This document shows, piece after piece, positions 3,673-10,128 of a DNA stretch of 64,000 bases. How positions within the stretch are numbered: position 1 is the first letter of the stretch; each line of letters starts with the position of its first letter. Source of the DNA: Cirrosporium novae-zelandiae. Lineage: Eukaryota. The notes beneath the pieces were generated by a model. It searched no databases. It was given only the letters and a program-made list of their open reading frames with translations, and was not told the origin of the DNA. The stretch spans positions 124,001 through 188,000 of the forward strand of contig JAPETS010000033.1 in the NCBI GenBank assembly GCA_026023565.1, in the 5' to 3' direction. The position numbers and the translations under genes were made by a program.

Positions 3673-6060
3673 TCACATCATCATTAACCTGGTTGTTCTC
3701 CGCTCCGGGAATTTACGTCCTGGACCCAGCATGGCTGATTGTTTACCAGCATGTGCAGAGCAATATACTTTGTTGTTCACTTCAAAGTAATCATTTTGCA
3801 ATGAAGTGTGGCAATCCTGCATTCACATTACTTGATTGTCACCCATTGGAAAATATAAAGAGTTGGAACTTACCTCGCATTTAAAGCAGTTGGGATGATA
3901 TTTCTTGTTGCTGTGTGTCTGGATATACGGCCCTTCAATTCCATGATCGCATCCTCCGCATAATGATCCGTTCAGCTCATGATAATGTCGTTCACAGTAA
4001 GGTTGATTCTCCAAAACATAAAAATCAGATGTTTGGAAGGGAGACTTGCAGGTCTTGCAAACGAAACATTGCTTGTGATATCTTCCCGTCAATCTTCCGT
4101 CAGCAGAACTTATGGATTTTCCTGTGATAAGCACGCCACAGCCTTTGCAATTTCCTCTATTACCTAGCGTCTTTCGTCTACCTGGAGGTGCAGTTCCCGG
4201 CCTATTAGGAGGAGGCGCCATTGGCACTCGATTATTTGCAGGAGGAAGTGGGGAAAGACGCCCATGCTGAATTGCTGGATCTATTGGAGATTCTGGAGAC
4301 GCAAAGAAGGGCATTCTAGGCTGCTGTAGCTCCCCTGGTGGTGCTGTATTTGATCGATTCAATGGCATACGCCCACCTGGAGGGCCCATAGGAGACGTTG
4401 CAGAACGTGCCAGTGAGGTTTGGGTTTGAGGGTCGTCTATTGGACTTTCGCTATCCTTGACACTCGAAGGTTGGGACCCTTGTGAGATCATGGATACTGG
4501 TGGGCTAGATCTTGAACTGATAGTTCTACCATCATATGCAGAGGAGCCACTGGACGAGGTTGAGAGCATTGTCATATGGTTGGGGCCCCGCTGAAGCGGC
4601 ACTGGAGGAGCATCCCCTAGCCTTGGATCTTGTCGGTATCCGTTGCGGCTCGCGTTGCGCGGAGGATGCATGGGGATTGCTTGTCCAGGTTGTAGAGGGA
4701 CTTCGGGGATAGTCCCTTCGATAACCAGGGTTGGTCTCCGAGCTCGAGATGGACCCGACGTGATCGAAGCAGCTTCCGATGGCCTTCTTGGTCGCATCGG
4801 CGGAGGTCCTGCAGGAAGAGGGCCTGTAGGAAATGACCCTCCGGGGCCGGGACCAATCGGAATACGATCATCTTGTGGAAAAGGCTGATACTTTTCTTGG
4901 TTAGTTTCCTCGCCTAGTTTCAACGGCATGGTCTGCGACCTATTTGGTGATTTCAAGGGCGCGATGTTGTCGTTGAGCGGGAATGTTTTGGATCTACTTT
5001 GAATGTTTATATGATCATCAGGATGCGGAGAGTTTGCCGGTTGATGTTCATCCAAATCAGACATGTCATCGGAGTCAGGTGTTACTATCTCGGCTTGAGA
5101 CGGCTCTGGAATTTTATGAAGCAAAAGTTGTGGTGTCACACTACCTGGAAGCTGAGGCGCATTGCTTTGACCCAAAGGTTTTGGTACCAGATTACTTGGC
5201 AAAGAAGGTCTACGTTGACGCGCTAGCACAGGATTTGAAGGATTTGGTGTCTGCGATCTCTTCACCTCAGGGCTAGCCGGCCTCGAGGGTCCTCTGGTGG
5301 TCCCGGACGCTCCATCGGGCTGAGTACCGCTCGGCTTGAATTGATCCCTATGGGAAGGATGATCCCTTGAACCGGCATGTCGCAAATCAAAAGGACCTGG
5401 AGCCATTTTGTTCATTCGTTGTGATACCGCATTTCCTCCATTTAGAGACGGACTGAGTGGCGCCTGATTTAAATTCGGACTTGGTTCAGCATGCATTCGG
5501 GCGAAATTATTGGGTGGTGGATTAAATTTAGGAGCCTTGGTCCTCGTCGGAGTGGCAGTCCTGGATATCGGAAAGGGTGGAAATGCACAATCGAGGTTCG
5601 AAAGTTCCGGTGATGGGGGGTTTGCCGTCAGAGGTGTCGTCATGCTTCTCGGAGGCATACGCATTCTTGGCGTTCTCCCAGGAGCGGGAGATATGGGAGA
5701 TGCGCTTCGGCTGCTTCCTCTGGATGCCTGACCTGGTCCTAGGAATGGCCGATCTAATCATGTCAATACTGAGGACGCTAAATGAGATAAGTTATAGCAT
5801 ACTTGCGGCATTTGTATCCAATCTCGAAGGGGGCATCCTTTGATTCCGTGCCGAGGGCGGTTGTCTGCTGCTACTCCGCGGCGGGGAAGAGACTTTTAAG
5901 ATGGCTATTCAAAATTAGCAGATTGGTCTGTATTGAGGAAATTCAACGCACGCTGAGAGGTAGAAGAGCAGACATGATCTCCCATCATTGAAATTTCGAC
6001 ATTGTTGCCGCAATTCGAACACTTTATCGAGGGCAACATAGCCCCCGCCGAAGTGGCCAT
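3673..6060 (-). CDS. Proline-rich LIM-domain protein (paxillin-like), spliced
   Basis: Exon 1 reads MATSAGAMLPSIKCSNCGNNVEISMMGDHVC from ATG 6060; C-terminal LIM domains CKGC..HKQCFVCKTC..YCERHYH and CGGC..HPNCFKC; last exon ends PERRTTRLMM* at 3673. Confidence 0.85.
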
Positions 6061-7392: not shown

Positions 7393-8159
7393 ACTGCTAG
7401 TGATGTGATTGATTGTTTGCCTCAGGAGGAAGGCCGGGGGAAAATAGGAAAATATATTATCCTTTTGGAAATTGTCCGAGTAATACAATCACATACTAAT
7501 TAGCCTATTTGACTCTCGGACACTTGCAGAAATATGCAGAAATATGCAGAAATATGTAACATGTGGACCCTTTTTTCCCTTACACAAGACAACTGGGGCA
7601 ACATTTACATAAGGATAACAGCAACTAGAAAAGGACGGATGATGGATTCTTCCCGGGTCCGAAGTCCCAATCAGCGGTCAAGAGGACGCTAAACCATTAT
7701 CAGCCTATCAATCCTCACCGCTTTGCCATTTTGGGTAATGCTAGACCTTTCCGACCGGCACTTTGCACATGTGTCATGCCCGATATGATGAATTTGGATG
7801 AATTTGGATAAATTCTGCCCGTCTTTTTTCTCATTTGCTTCCTCGTACTTTGGAGCAATTGAACAAACACACTTACTCCTCCAACACTCTAACTGCTCAA
7901 GTGCTCAAGTGCTCACTGTTTTTCTCAACAACCTCCGAATTCTTCCTTTTAGGCCCCACAAATTCTCACAATACCCACCAACATTTATCCCACTATCCGA
8001 TAGATAAGGACCACCCATCCCTCCCCTCTCCCATTTCTTCTTTCTTCTCTTCTTCTCACACTTAACAAAGTATCCAAGCTCTTTTTTCTTACCTTGCTCA
8101 AAGATCTACTTCGCAGAGAACCTGTCTCTGCAAAGAAGTCTTTGTTCAACACCGCCAAA

Positions 8160-8371
8160 ACGTTTTCCACACTACTAAACTCGTAAGTCTCACCTTTCTC
8201 CCCCTCACATTTCACCACTCCTGAGGATCTTCATAAAATACCTTGCAATATGATTCCCAGTAGAAAACATCCGTTAACATCATATCCTTCTCCAGGGTCC
8301 ACCACCCGCACAACGGGACCCGACGCTCTTCTGCTCGTGGAGGGGCATCGGATTACTGTCAAAGCGAATAA
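8160..8371 (+). CDS. Non-AUG (ACG) spliced uORF in the INO1 5' leader, 32 aa: (M)FSTLLNSVHHPHNGTRRSSARGGASDYCQSE
   Basis: ACG at 8160 in context GCCAAA-ACG; intron 8183-8295 (GTAAGT..GTTAAC..CCAG); TAA at 8369-8371, 31 nt before the INO1 ATG. Confidence 0.7.
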
Positions 8372-8402
8372 AAAGTTATCTCGCTTTTAGCATCATATAA
8401 CA

Positions 8403-10128
8403 ATGGCACCACACGCTGATATTGGCGATGGTTATTCTAATGGAGTGGGGAATGGCACTAATGGGTCATCTCCTTCCAAGGAACTCTTCACCGTAAACTC
8501 TCCCAACGTCGTGTACACAGACAATGAGATCAAAAGCAAATATGTGTACCGGACTACCGATATTACGGAGACTGAAGGCGGAAAGTTTATCGCCACACCC
8601 AAGGAAACGGTCTATGACTTCAAAGTTGATCGTAACGTTGGGAAGGTCGGCATGATGCTTGTCGGGTGGGGTGGGAACAATGGTTCAACAGTTACTGCTG
8701 GGATCATTGCAAACCGCCGGGGACTGGTGTGGGAGACTCGTGAAGGAAAGCGCACTGCCAATTACTATGGCTCGGTCATCATGGGATCCACCGTCAAACT
8801 TGGAACCAATTCCAACACTGGAAAAGAGATTAATATTCCATTCCATGACCTGCTCCCCATGGTCCATCCAAATGACCTAGTCATTAGTGGCTGGGACATT
8901 AGCGGAATGAACCTTGCAGATGCCATGGACAGAGCAGCTGTGCTGGAACCTAGTTTGAAAGGGCTCGTCAGAGAAGAGATGGCCGCAATGAAACCTCTTC
9001 GTAGCATCTACTATCCTGATTTCATTGCCGCCAATCAGGAAGATCGTGCGGACAATGTCCTCAAAGGTTCCAAGGCCTCCATGGAACATGTAGAACAAAT
9101 CCGCAAAGATATCCGGTATATTCTAGCATTTCCTACCTTGCATTACACAATGCTAACGAGAAATTTAGTGATTTTAAATCCAGCCAGGGGTTGGATAAAG
9201 TCATCGTTTTGTGGACCGCCAACACCGAACGTTATGCCGATATTCTTTCGGGAGTCAATGACACTGCTGACAACCTTCTCAAGTCCATCAAAGATGGTCA
9301 TGAGGAAGTTGCTCCTTCCACCGTCTTCGCCGTGGCTTGCATTCTCGAAAATGTGCCGTTCATTAATGGCTCTCCTCAGAACACATTTGTTCCCGGAGCA
9401 ATTGAACTTGCGGAGAAGCACGGCGCTTTCATTGGCGGAGATGACTTCAAGTCTGGCCAAACCAAGATGAAATCTGCTCTTGCGGATTTCTTGATCAATG
9501 CCGGAATCAAGCTTACTTCCATTGCGAGCTACAACCATCTCGGCAACAATGACGGAAAGAATTTGAGCTCCCAAAGACAATTTAGATCCAAGGAAATCTC
9601 TAAATCCAACGTCGTTGATGATATGGTTGAGACCAACTCGGTCCTTTACAAGAAGGGCGAACACCCCGATCATACCGTTGTGATCAAGTACATGCCAGCC
9701 GTTGGAGATAACAAACGAGCTCTGGATGAATACTATGCTGAAATTTTCATGGGTGGTCACCAGACTATCAGCATCTTTAACGTTTGCGAGGACTCTCTTT
9801 TGGCATCTCCCTTGATCATTGATTTGATTGTGGTTTCTGAGATGATGACTCGTATCCAATGGAAGGCGCATGCCAGCGGAGGAGTAGCCACCAAGGACTA
9901 CAGGGGTTTCAATAGTGTATTGAGCATTCTCAGTTACATGCTTAAGGTACGTACATCCTCGAGAGGTTTGATGAACGAAACTAATCTTTTAAGGCTCCTT
10001 TGACACCAACTGGAACCCCAGTGGTTAATGCTCTTGCTAAGCAACGCAGTGCCTTGACAAACATATTCCGTGCATGTGTTGGCTTGGAACCGGAATCGGA
10101 TATGACCTTGGAGCATAAGCTTTTCTAA
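8403..10128 (+). CDS. INO1: Myo-inositol-1-phosphate synthase
   Basis: MIPS motifs [27 protein letters not shown] and [10 protein letters not shown]; introns about 9116-9168 and 9947-9993; ends LEHKLF*. Confidence 0.97.

What the first reader, a model, noticed from the sequence alone, without database searches (positions are those of the whole stretch)
8109..8402. Spliced ACG-initiated uORF peptide in the INO1 leader: candidate inositol-sensing translational control
Seen: the spliced leader (about 8040-8402) has no exonic AUG but carries ACG in a strong initiation context (GCCAAA-ACG, 8160). Removing the canonical intron 8183-8295 gives a 32-codon frame, (M)FSTLLNSVHHPHNGTRRSSARGGASDYCQSE*, ending 31 nt before the INO1 AUG. 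A hairpin (CTTCGCAGAGA/TCTCTGCAAAG, 8109-8135) lies just upstream. The frame is absent from the ORF track. Established: fungal metabolite-responsive uORF peptides exist, e.g. the arginine attenuator peptide of arg-2/CPA1. I recall reports of a conserved non-AUG uORF in filamentous-fungal INO1 leaders but cannot verify that here, so it may be known. Inference: the nascent peptide stalls or queues ribosomes in response to inositol, repressing INO1.
Basis: partly seen in the sequence, partly recalled or inferred. Interest (0 to 1): 0.85.

Follow-up and report, generated by a model that had tools for sequence, protein, structure and literature searches.

The report
Conserved non-AUG leader peptide before INO1
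The messenger RNA for the fungal inositol-making enzyme INO1 carries, ahead of the enzyme's own start, a tiny 32-codon reading frame that starts at ACG instead of AUG, is split by an intron and has been kept almost unchanged in dozens of distantly related fungi, which marks it as a likely translational brake on inositol synthesis.

Summary

Of 80 fungal INO1 loci from metagenomes, 70 hold the same spliced uORF (50 distinct sequences with the window).
- It is always 31-32 codons.
- pN is below pS in 1223 of 1225 pairs; shifted frames lose this.
- The start position holds only ACG (38), CUG (4), AUU (4) or AUG (4). All 46 non-AUG starts have A at -3 and all 4 AUG starts have U.
- Exonic leader holds 1 ATG in 7,724 nt (82.7 expected); introns are not depleted.
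- Exons are fused in frame in 3 mRNA-sized contigs and in 22 of 34 hits in a 1.84-billion-protein library.
- A covarying hairpin ends 9-16 nt before the start.

Translation, stalling and inositol sensing remain untested; no RNA run was listed. Nine literature searches found no report of it. My verdict: a new conserved-peptide, near-cognate-start uORF family, built like plant GGP and AZIN1 uORFs.

The parts
8100..8143 (+). Stem-loop in the leader. The core is 7 bp (8113-8119 with 8125-8131). Its 3' end lies 16 nt before the ACG.
   Evidence: MFE -16.7, z -3.07. A hairpin at the same position occurs in 46 of 50 distinct leaders, with compensatory changes.
8150..8159 (+). Conserved initiation context (CACCGCCAAA; A at -3) in front of the near-cognate start.
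   Evidence: A at -3 in 46 of 46 distinct non-AUG leaders. This context is replaced, with U at -3, in all 4 AUG-start leaders.
8160..8162 (+). ACG, the inferred uORF start codon.
   Evidence: this position holds only ACG (38), CTG (4), ATT (4) or ATG (4) in 50 distinct leaders, and never ACA, ACC or ACT. Amino-acid conservation begins here. Upstream in-frame stops lie 0-9 codons away in 11 distinct leaders.
8160..8182 (+). uORF exon 1: the start codon, six codons and 2 nt of the Ser-8 codon.
   Evidence: conserved as F/Y-S-N-L-L-N-S, with free synonymous variation.
8183..8295 (+). Leader intron of 113 nt, phase 2, with GTAAGT donor, TTAAC and CAG acceptor. It contains the only ATG of the leader (8250).
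   Evidence: same position and phase in 47 of 50 distinct leaders, length 48-168 nt. Introns are not ATG-depleted. Exons are fused in frame in intron-free sequences.
8296..8371 (+). uORF exon 2: the last base of codon 8, codons 9-32 and the TAA stop at 8369-8371.
   Evidence: The peptide HMM gives a single hit in the 64-kb window here (29.9 bits).
8372..8402 (+). Spacer of 31 nt between the uORF stop and the INO1 AUG. It is ATG-free and not conserved in sequence.
   Evidence: spacers are 31-82 nt in 47 of 50 distinct leaders and are not held to multiples of three.
8403..9115 (+). INO1 (myo-inositol-1-phosphate synthase) coding exon 1.
   Evidence: PF07994, E 4e-63; 65-78% identity to 80 fungal loci. 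The exon end is read from the sequence.

Best explanation
The INO1 mRNA leader encodes a cis-acting regulatory uORF of the conserved-peptide type. After removal of a 113-nt leader intron, scanning 43S complexes meet an ACG in an optimal context, 16 nt behind a small hairpin. Most complexes leak past it and start at the INO1 AUG. A minority initiate and make a 32-residue peptide. I infer that this nascent peptide slows or arrests its own ribosome inside the uORF or at its stop codon when a pathway signal is high. The most likely signal is myo-inositol or a close derivative. The arrested ribosome would block the leader. Because the stop lies about 31 codons (three ribosome lengths) after the ACG, it would also queue following complexes over the weak start, raising uORF initiation and lowering INO1 translation. 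This is end-product feedback at the level of translation. Shown here: the anatomy, peptide-level purifying selection, the near-cognate start signature, compensation between start codon and context, the AUG-free exonic leader, the conserved intron and the conserved hairpin. Inferred: translation itself, arrest, queuing, and the identity of the signal.
For: 1. Conservation. 70 of 80 fungal INO1 loci carry the complete spliced uORF: 50 distinct sequences counting the window. INO1 N-terminal identity among them falls to 62%. In the window the two exons, with the start context and the splice-site flanks, are the only leader blocks that align with most loci; blastn outside them gives only scattered short matches of 11-40 nt at E 0.002 or worse.

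2. Coding signature. pN is below pS in 1223 of 1225 pairs. Median dN/dS is 0.28 over the 930 pairs with finite dS. Differences per codon position are 0.32, 0.28 and 0.55. The same alignment read in the two shifted frames gives pN/pS of 1.23 and 1.42. Invariant L6 and S8 each use four codons.

3. Length is fixed at 31 codons (22 sequences) or 32 codons (28 sequences), while intron length runs 48-168 nt and the spacer 31-202 nt.

4. The start position holds only AUG-like codons: ACG 38, CTG 4, ATT 4, ATG 4. ACG is never replaced by a synonymous Thr codon. The INO1 tree needs 6 changes of start codon.

5. A at -3 in 46 of 46 non-AUG starts; U at -3 in 4 of 4 AUG starts, which the tree places as 3 changes (starred branches force at least 2). 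This fits selection for weak, leaky initiation.

6. One ATG in 7,724 nt of exonic uORF plus spacer (82.7 expected from shuffles). Introns hold 98 in 5,126 nt (68.5 expected).

7. Exon 1 and exon 2 are fused exactly in frame in 3 mRNA-sized contigs with uninterrupted INO1 ORFs. They are also fused in 22 of 34 hits from a 1.84-billion-protein library. In 33 of those 34 hits the motif sits at the C-terminus of the called ORF.

8. The peptide HMM hits only INO1 leaders: one hit in the 64-kb window and none on minus strands.

9. Hairpin. Mean MFE is -9.8 against -2.6 kcal/mol for a control stretch. 28 of 50 leaders against 3 of 49 controls reach p<=0.05. 4 of the 5 outer pairs show double changes, and 0 of 500 shuffles reach the covariation score.

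10. Precedents. The GGP uORF starts at ACG and is linked to ascorbate feedback (PMC11066809, passages). The AZIN1 uORF starts at AUU, with a stall about 30 codons downstream that raises initiation (PMC9082881, passages).
Against: No expression or ribosome data exist for this organism or any relative. No RNA run could be listed, so translation of the uORF, the transcription start and splicing in the window's organism are all unshown.

Nothing here links the peptide to inositol or to ribosome arrest. That part is analogy.

The strongest conservation is in the N-terminal half. The last five residues vary, and in the window they depart from the common S-P-aromatic-T-R/K ending. This does not look like a classical C-terminal arrest motif such as PPW.

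The window's own peptide deviates at two otherwise conserved positions: T for N at 4, and H for F/Y at 13.

One locus with ample upstream DNA lacks the uORF (L080). One keeps only an exon-2-like frame (L003). One has a shorter variant by hand parse only (L029).

The hairpin ends used for the covariation count were chosen by folding, which favours pairing.
Confidence: 0.6

Rival explanations
1. Same cis-acting arrest or queuing uORF, but the signal is not inositol. It could be another pathway or lipid metabolite (inositol phosphates, phosphatidylinositol or phosphatidic-acid status, glucose-6-phosphate, NAD). It could also be a general translation state, such as eIF5A or polyamine level, eIF2 phosphorylation, or eIF1/eIF5-set start-codon stringency.
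For: All the structural evidence for a regulatory uORF is silent about the ligand. A weak start kept weak by context compensation would make INO1 sensitive to start-codon stringency in general. For the plant GGP uORF, the review passages state that direct sensing of ascorbate is still unproven (PMC11066809).
Against: The peptide occurs only in front of INO1 in everything searched. Known conserved-peptide uORFs in front of biosynthetic enzymes usually report that pathway's product; this is established for arg-2/CPA1 and SAM decarboxylase, and I cite it from recall. A purely stringency-sensing uORF would not need a conserved peptide.
Confidence: 0.2
2. The uORF is translated, but its product is a free 32-residue micropeptide that acts in trans, for example on INO1 enzyme or on lipid metabolism. 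Repression of INO1 translation would then be incidental.
For: Peptide-level selection over the whole length fits any functional peptide.
Against: A product wanted in quantity would not be held at a near-cognate start, nor would its AUG variants be weakened by U at -3. The strict 31-32-codon length and the strict linkage to the INO1 leader are typical of cis-acting nascent peptides. The peptide is hydrophilic and rich in low-complexity residues (S, G, A, R), with no obvious fold; this is read from the alignment.
Confidence: 0.07
3. The conserved blocks are not translated. They would be RNA or DNA elements, such as splicing signals, a protein-binding site or a promoter element, that happen to be open in one frame.
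For: The conserved hairpin and context upstream of the ACG show that non-coding constraints exist in this leader. Exon 1 abuts a splice donor.
Against: Several results argue against it:
- Variation is three-periodic, with dN/dS of 0.28 against more than 1 in the shifted frames.
- Leu and Ser codons change by two-base synonymous switches.
- The stop codon and length are conserved, and the start position is restricted to AUG-like codons.
- ATG is depleted in exons only.
- There is no Rfam match.
Confidence: 0.03
4. The frame is an alternative 5' coding exon that extends the INO1 protein at its N-terminus in some isoform.
For: It lies in the same transcript and on the same strand as INO1.
Against: An in-frame stop ends the frame in all 50 distinct leaders. 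The spacer to the AUG takes lengths that are not multiples of three and is not conserved. All 33 related library ORFs end at this stop.
Confidence: 0.01

Closest known systems
Plant GDP-L-galactose phosphorylase (GGP/VTC2) uORF
   Same: It is a conserved-peptide uORF in the leader of the committed enzyme of a small-molecule pathway. It starts at a non-canonical ACG. Changing that ACG to AUG strongly represses the main ORF, and it is proposed to give end-product (ascorbate) feedback by ribosome stalling (PMC11066809, passages).
   Different: No peptide alignment with GGP was made here (no sequence was in hand), so a distant sequence relation is untested. It belongs to a different kingdom and pathway. 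The INO1 uORF is shorter and always split by an intron 23 nt after the start. It also has a hairpin 9-16 nt upstream. No functional data exist for INO1.
AZIN1 / ornithine decarboxylase-homologue uORF ('uCC'), polyamine-responsive ribosome queuing
   Same: It has a near-cognate start (AUU) in good context and a conserved peptide. Its pause site lies about 30 codons downstream of the weak start, so that queued complexes raise initiation there (PMC9082881, passages). The primary paper is not held. The INO1 uORF has the same geometry: a stop 31-32 codons after the start, invariant in 50 distinct sequences.
   Different: The AZIN1 stall depends on a C-terminal PPW motif and on polyamines. The INO1 peptide has no PPW, and its C-terminus is its least conserved part. 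The effector is unknown.
Fungal arginine attenuator peptide (arg-2 / CPA1 uORF)
   Same: It is a fungal, peptide-sequence-dependent uORF in front of a biosynthetic enzyme. It stalls ribosomes in response to the pathway's product. I cite this from recall of established knowledge; no paper was read for it.
   Different: The arginine attenuator peptide is AUG-initiated, about 24 residues long, not split by an intron and lies before a different gene. The INO1 uORF fails these family features, so it is an analogue and not a member.
Yeast INO1 control by Ino2/Ino4 and Opi1 through UAS-INO (ICRE)
   Same: It has the same target gene and the same presumed purpose: shutting down inositol synthesis when inositol is plentiful (recalled textbook knowledge).
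   Different: It is transcriptional, not translational. The yeast-type extended motif CATGTGAA is present in only 4 of 40 of these promoters (0.7 expected), and no promoter 8-mer is shared by more than 8 of 40. The uORF, by contrast, is nearly universal in this set.

Membership tests
Conserved-peptide uORF (CPuORF) | Short ORF wholly within the 5' leader, ending before the main start codon | tested here: met
   The stop at 8369-8371 lies 31 nt before AUG 8403. A stop and a spacer of 31-202 nt are present in all 50 distinct leaders.
Conserved-peptide uORF (CPuORF) | Amino-acid-level conservation across distant species (purifying selection on the peptide) | tested here: met
   pN is below pS in 1223 of 1225 pairs and median dN/dS is 0.28. 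Shifted frames give ratios of 1.23 and 1.42. INO1 identity among the loci falls to 62%.
Conserved-peptide uORF (CPuORF) | The uORF is actually translated | not testable with these tools
   No RNA or ribosome-profiling run was listed. Support is indirect only: the start-codon pattern and ATG depletion.
Conserved-peptide uORF (CPuORF) | Peptide-sequence-dependent repression of the main ORF in cis | not testable with these tools
   This needs reporters or toeprinting.
Near-cognate-start regulatory uORF (GGP / AZIN1 type) | Conserved non-AUG start codon in strong context, with substitutions only to other AUG-like codons | tested here: met
   Distinct leaders: ACG 38, CTG 4, ATT 4, ATG 4. No synonymous Thr codon occurs. 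A at -3 in 46 of 46 non-AUG starts. In the fused library ORFs the residue at this position is T 15, I 6, V 1.
Near-cognate-start regulatory uORF (GGP / AZIN1 type) | Pause site at a fixed distance (about 30 codons) downstream of the weak start, allowing queuing | tested here: inconclusive
   The distance from start to stop is fixed at 31-32 codons, matching the roughly 30 codons quoted for AZIN1. No pause has been observed.
Near-cognate-start regulatory uORF (GGP / AZIN1 type) | Response to the pathway's metabolite | not testable with these tools
   No data exist. The claim is inferred from the identity of the downstream gene.
Arginine attenuator peptide family | AUG-initiated uORF of about 24 codons in front of the small subunit of arginine-specific carbamoyl-phosphate synthetase | tested here: not met
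   The downstream gene is INO1. The start is ACG and the length is 32 codons. The family features are recalled, not looked up.
Known structured RNA family (Rfam) | Match to a curated covariance model | tested here: not met
   In 7900-8450 the only match is RF02706 at 15.8 bits against a gathering score of 86, E 0.3.

The most novel reading that the evidence does not exclude
The INO1 leader peptide, still inside the ribosome tunnel, would be a direct sensor of myo-inositol or an inositol phosphate. That would be the first inositol-responsive arrest peptide, and the main feedback loop on inositol synthesis in filamentous ascomycetes, in place of the yeast Ino2/Ino4/Opi1 transcriptional circuit. 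Three co-evolving devices would set its gain. The first is a near-cognate start held weak by context compensation. The second is a hairpin parked at the 40S exit channel that helps capture the scanning complex on the ACG. The third is an obligatory intron 23 nt after the start, whose splicing mark or regulated retention gates the system. This intron is retained even where every coding intron of INO1 has been lost.
Probability: 0.3. Interest if true: 0.88.

Novelty: new member of a known kind. Interest (0 to 1): 0.76.

Why it matters
INO1 is the textbook example of transcriptional control of lipid-precursor synthesis in yeast. How filamentous fungi regulate it is much less clear.

In every lineage sampled here, a deeply conserved non-AUG peptide uORF is by far the most conserved feature upstream of INO1. 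That points to translational feedback as an old and general layer of control.

It would add a new, independently evolved case to the very short list of near-cognate-start, metabolite-linked uORFs (GGP, AZIN1). The natural variation is unusually informative:
- four start codons;
- context compensation between start codon and the -3 base;
- leaders with and without the hairpin;
- a fixed 31-32-codon length.

These variants make the ribosome-queuing model directly testable in tractable fungi and in fungal cell-free extracts. Editing the uORF would be an obvious handle for raising inositol output, as editing of the GGP uORF has been for ascorbate.

Tried and rejected
**Searches that returned nothing**
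- RNA evidence: the look-up of sequencing runs on 7900-9200 listed no RNA holder, so read laying could not be used.
- The window's own genome is not held.
- Earlier findings of this scan: three look-ups (by sequence, words and place) returned nothing.
- Rfam: no meaningful match.

- The primary AZIN1 queuing paper (PMC5916843) is not held.

**Literature**
- Nine full-text searches gave no paper on an INO1/MIPS uORF in fungi.
- Term look-ups in Ivanov et al. 2017 (PMC5487733), a 2024 microbial uORF review (PMC11550727) and the A. fumigatus UTR map (PMC12810187) found no mention of inositol or INO1.
- Subscription journals and supplements were not seen, so an earlier report cannot be excluded.

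**Analyses that led nowhere**
- The MAFFT alignment of the 58 nt before the start (A1) was too poor for a structure count. I used alignment-free folding statistics and an end-anchored alignment of 27 hairpins instead.
- The promoter motif hunt found no shared k-mer. The yeast-type ICRE is at most weakly enriched.

**Readings considered and rejected**
- N-terminal extension of INO1.
- A non-coding element.
- Membership of the arginine attenuator peptide family.

The taxonomic range beyond 'Ascomycota' (an atlas lead only) could not be established, because the loci are unnamed metagenome contigs.

Full report
**What is in the window**

The ORF starting at 8403 is myo-inositol-1-phosphate synthase, INO1 (Pfam PF07994, E 4e-63). 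An atlas lead places it in Ascomycota.

- ACG at 8160-8162 after GCCAAA.
- Exon 1 at 8160-8182.
- Intron at 8183-8295, with a GTAAGT donor, TTAAC at 8274-8278 and a CAG acceptor.
- Exon 2 up to TAA at 8369-8371.
- 32 sense codons in all, and 31 nt to the INO1 AUG.

From 7801 to 8402 the only ATG is at 8250, inside the intron. Its MFE is -16.7 kcal/mol with z -3.07, and 1 of 200 shuffles folds as well. Its 3' end lies 16 nt before the ACG.

The upstream neighbour is a 613-codon ORF on the other strand (3823-5664). INO1 therefore sits behind a 2.7-kb divergent intergenic region.

**Comparative material**

No RNA run was listed and no genome is held for the window. I therefore fetched relatives of the INO1 N-terminus from metagenome contigs. 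Of 212 pattern matches, 105 encode a relative, and the best 80 were kept (65-78% identity).

blastn of the window's leader against their upstream regions aligns mainly two blocks: the start context plus exon 1 plus the donor, and the acceptor plus exon 2; matches elsewhere in the leader are short (11-40 nt) and weak (E 0.002 or worse). tblastn with the spliced peptide finds both exons in most loci.

**How general the uORF is**

An automatic parse looked for an exon-1 pattern, a GT donor, the nearest in-frame AG acceptor, an H-H-P motif and a stop. It recovered a complete uORF in 70 of the 80 loci. The L003 parse was dropped as doubtful. With the window this gives 71 sequences, of which 50 are distinct.

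The ten loci without a complete parse are:
- Seven that hold 0-203 nt upstream of the AUG. Three of them (L002, L008, L045) still show the exon-2 peptide, or the end of exon 1, at the contig edge.
- L003, which keeps an exon-2-like frame with a stop but has no recognisable exon 1.
- L029, which has a shorter variant by hand parse only.
- L080, the most distant locus, which has nothing.

**Evidence that the frame codes for a peptide**

- Length is 31 codons (22 sequences) or 32 codons (28 sequences), and nothing else. Intron length meanwhile runs from 48 to 168 nt and the spacer from 31 to 202 nt.
- pN is below pS in 1223 of 1225 pairs. Mean pN is 0.288 and mean pS 0.641.
- Median dN/dS is 0.28 over the 930 pairs with finite dS; 293 pairs are saturated.
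- Differences per codon position are 0.32, 0.28 and 0.55.
- The same nucleotide alignment read in the two other frames gives pN/pS of 1.23 and 1.42.
- L6, S8 and H10 are invariant. L6 and S8 each use four codons.

The common pattern is F/Y-S-N-L-L-N-S, then x-H-H-P-F/Y-N/A-G, then R-R-S, then G-G-A-S-D, and a looser tail. The window's copy is a somewhat divergent member. It has T at position 4, H at position 13 (unique among the 50) and an atypical tail.

A profile of the peptide hits the six-frame translation of the window once. It hits no minus strand of any locus, and no locus holds more than two hits.

**Evidence that ACG is the start**

- In the 50 distinct sequences the position holds ACG (38), CTG (4), ATT (4) or ATG (4). 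It never holds ACA, ACC or ACT, although other four-fold codons in the uORF vary freely.
- On a tree of the INO1 N-termini these states need six changes. Minimum origins are ATG two to three, CTG two and ATT one.
- Amino-acid conservation stops at this codon. Upstream translations differ, and in-frame stops lie 0-9 codons upstream in eleven distinct leaders.
- All 46 non-AUG starts have A at -3 within a conserved C-A-A-R context.
- All four AUG starts have lost that context and have U at -3.

This reciprocal pattern is what selection for a weak, leaky start would produce.

**Evidence that the exons are scanned leader and the intron is removed**

- Exonic uORF plus spacer holds 1 ATG in 7,724 nt, against 82.7 expected from shuffles. 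The single case is a tandem main start.
- Introns hold 98 ATGs in 5,126 nt, against 68.5 expected.
- Per leader, 49 of 50 have no exonic ATG, 44 of 50 have none in the 120 nt upstream, and 41 of 47 introns have at least one.
- The intron is always in phase 2 of codon 8, 23 nt after the first base of the start.
- Nine distinct lineages have an INO1 coding region with no intron at all, yet still keep this leader intron.
- Three contigs (L021, L061, L063) are 1.9-2.2 kb long. Each holds an uninterrupted INO1 ORF and 100-162 nt upstream of the uORF start. In each, exon 1 and exon 2 are fused exactly in frame. They look like transcripts, but I could not verify that.

An exhaustive profile search of 1.84 billion representative proteins gave independent support:
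- It returned 34 hits; one is an unrelated repeat protein.
- In the other 33 the motif lies at the C-terminus of a called ORF; in 32 of them the frame reaches the last residue.
- In 22 of these, exon 1 and exon 2 are fused. They lie 30-32 residues from the start position, which reads T (15), I (6) or V (1).
- Their origin could not be looked up.

**The hairpin**

- Mean MFE of the 42 nt ending 7 nt before the start is -9.8 kcal/mol, against -2.6 for a control stretch 62 nt further upstream.
- 28 of 50 leaders beat 95% of dinucleotide shuffles, against 3 of 49 controls.
- A single hairpin of -5 kcal/mol or better is present in 46 of 50. That is 45 of 46 non-AUG leaders and 1 of 4 AUG leaders.
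- In 39 of those 46 the hairpin ends 9-16 nt before the start.
- For 27 hairpins of the commonest class, aligned by their ends, the five outer pairs are 100% paired. Four of the five show changes on both sides (13 cells). None of 500 shuffles reaches the covariation score. One caveat applies: the ends were chosen by folding.
- No Rfam family matches.
- A 2026 preprint places mRNA positions -9 to -14 and -17 to -20 in contact with the 40S exit channel and eIF3 in the closed 48S complex (passages). The hairpin therefore sits where it could influence capture of the complex on the weak start. This is inference only.

**Mechanism**

The architecture has four elements:
- a near-cognate start kept weak;
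- a conserved peptide;
- a fixed 31-32 codons from start to stop;
- an AUG-free leader in front of a committed biosynthetic enzyme.

This is the architecture of the plant GGP uORF, which starts at ACG and is linked to ascorbate (PMC11066809, passages). It is also that of the AZIN1 uORF, which starts at AUU and has a polyamine-dependent pause about 30 codons downstream that raises initiation by queuing (PMC9082881, passages).

I therefore favour a cis-acting nascent-peptide brake with queuing, most likely reporting inositol status. Only the anatomy and its selective maintenance are shown. Translation, arrest and the ligand are inferred.

Two points count against a simple C-terminal arrest motif. 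The most conserved residues are N-terminal, and the tail varies.

**Novelty**

Nine full-text searches and term look-ups in three likely papers found no report of an INO1/MIPS uORF in fungi. Subscription literature and supplements were not seen.

No conserved promoter motif emerged. The yeast-type ICRE is in 4 of 40 promoters, and no 8-mer is shared by more than 8 of 40. The uORF is thus the dominant conserved feature upstream of INO1 in these fungi.

I rate it a new member of a known kind. Two features have no described counterpart that I know of: the obligatory intron and the exit-side hairpin.

Noticed in passing
L053, L054, L067, L068, L070, L073, L075, L076, L078 (whole loci): In nine distinct lineages the INO1 coding region is one uninterrupted ORF of 531-542 codons. 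The leader intron inside the uORF is nevertheless retained, at 48-168 nt. That suggests the intron itself is under selection.
   Followed up: partly
window 8250-8390: The only ATG of the leader lies in the intron. It opens a 46-codon frame ending 12 nt before the INO1 AUG. An intron-retaining transcript would therefore carry a strong AUG uORF, so splicing could be a second control point.
   Followed up: no
window 7527-7556, 7786-7808, 7897-7916: Short tandem direct repeats lie in the INO1 promoter region: three copies of a 10-mer, two copies of a 10-mer, and a doubled 8-mer. They were read and not analysed.
   Followed up: no
window 7767-7772; promoters of 40 loci: A CATGTG E-box lies about 390 nt upstream of the ACG. 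Across 40 promoters CATGTG occurs in 15 (9.3 expected) and the extended yeast-like CATGTGAA in 4 (0.7 expected). The yeast UAS-INO type site is therefore at most sporadic here. The motif itself is recalled.
   Followed up: partly
window 8011-8060: A pyrimidine-rich (CT) tract lies just upstream of the stem-loop. Such tracts often lie near fungal transcription starts (recalled). This would fit a start upstream of 8100, as do the 100-162 nt held upstream of the uORF start in the three mRNA-sized contigs.
   Followed up: no
L016-L020, L022-L024, L027: A clade with an AUG-initiated uORF has a poor context and no upstream hairpin. Eight of its nine loci share one uORF sequence. In seven of the nine, the INO1 start is a tandem ATGATG.
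   Followed up: partly
L003, L008; L080; L029: One lineage (L003, L008) keeps an exon-2-like peptide but has no recognisable exon 1. The most distant locus (L080, 65% identity) has no uORF. L029 has a shorter variant with the intron in the same phase. These are possible cases of decay or remodelling.
   Followed up: partly
P0030 (library hit): A 375-residue protein with four tandem repeats resembling the G-R-H-S-S-A-S-G-G-A-T stretch scored 39 bits. I judge it an unrelated low-complexity match.
   Followed up: no
window 3823-5664 (- strand): A 613-codon ORF is transcribed divergently from INO1. The two genes share a 2.7-kb intergenic region. It was not identified.
   Followed up: no
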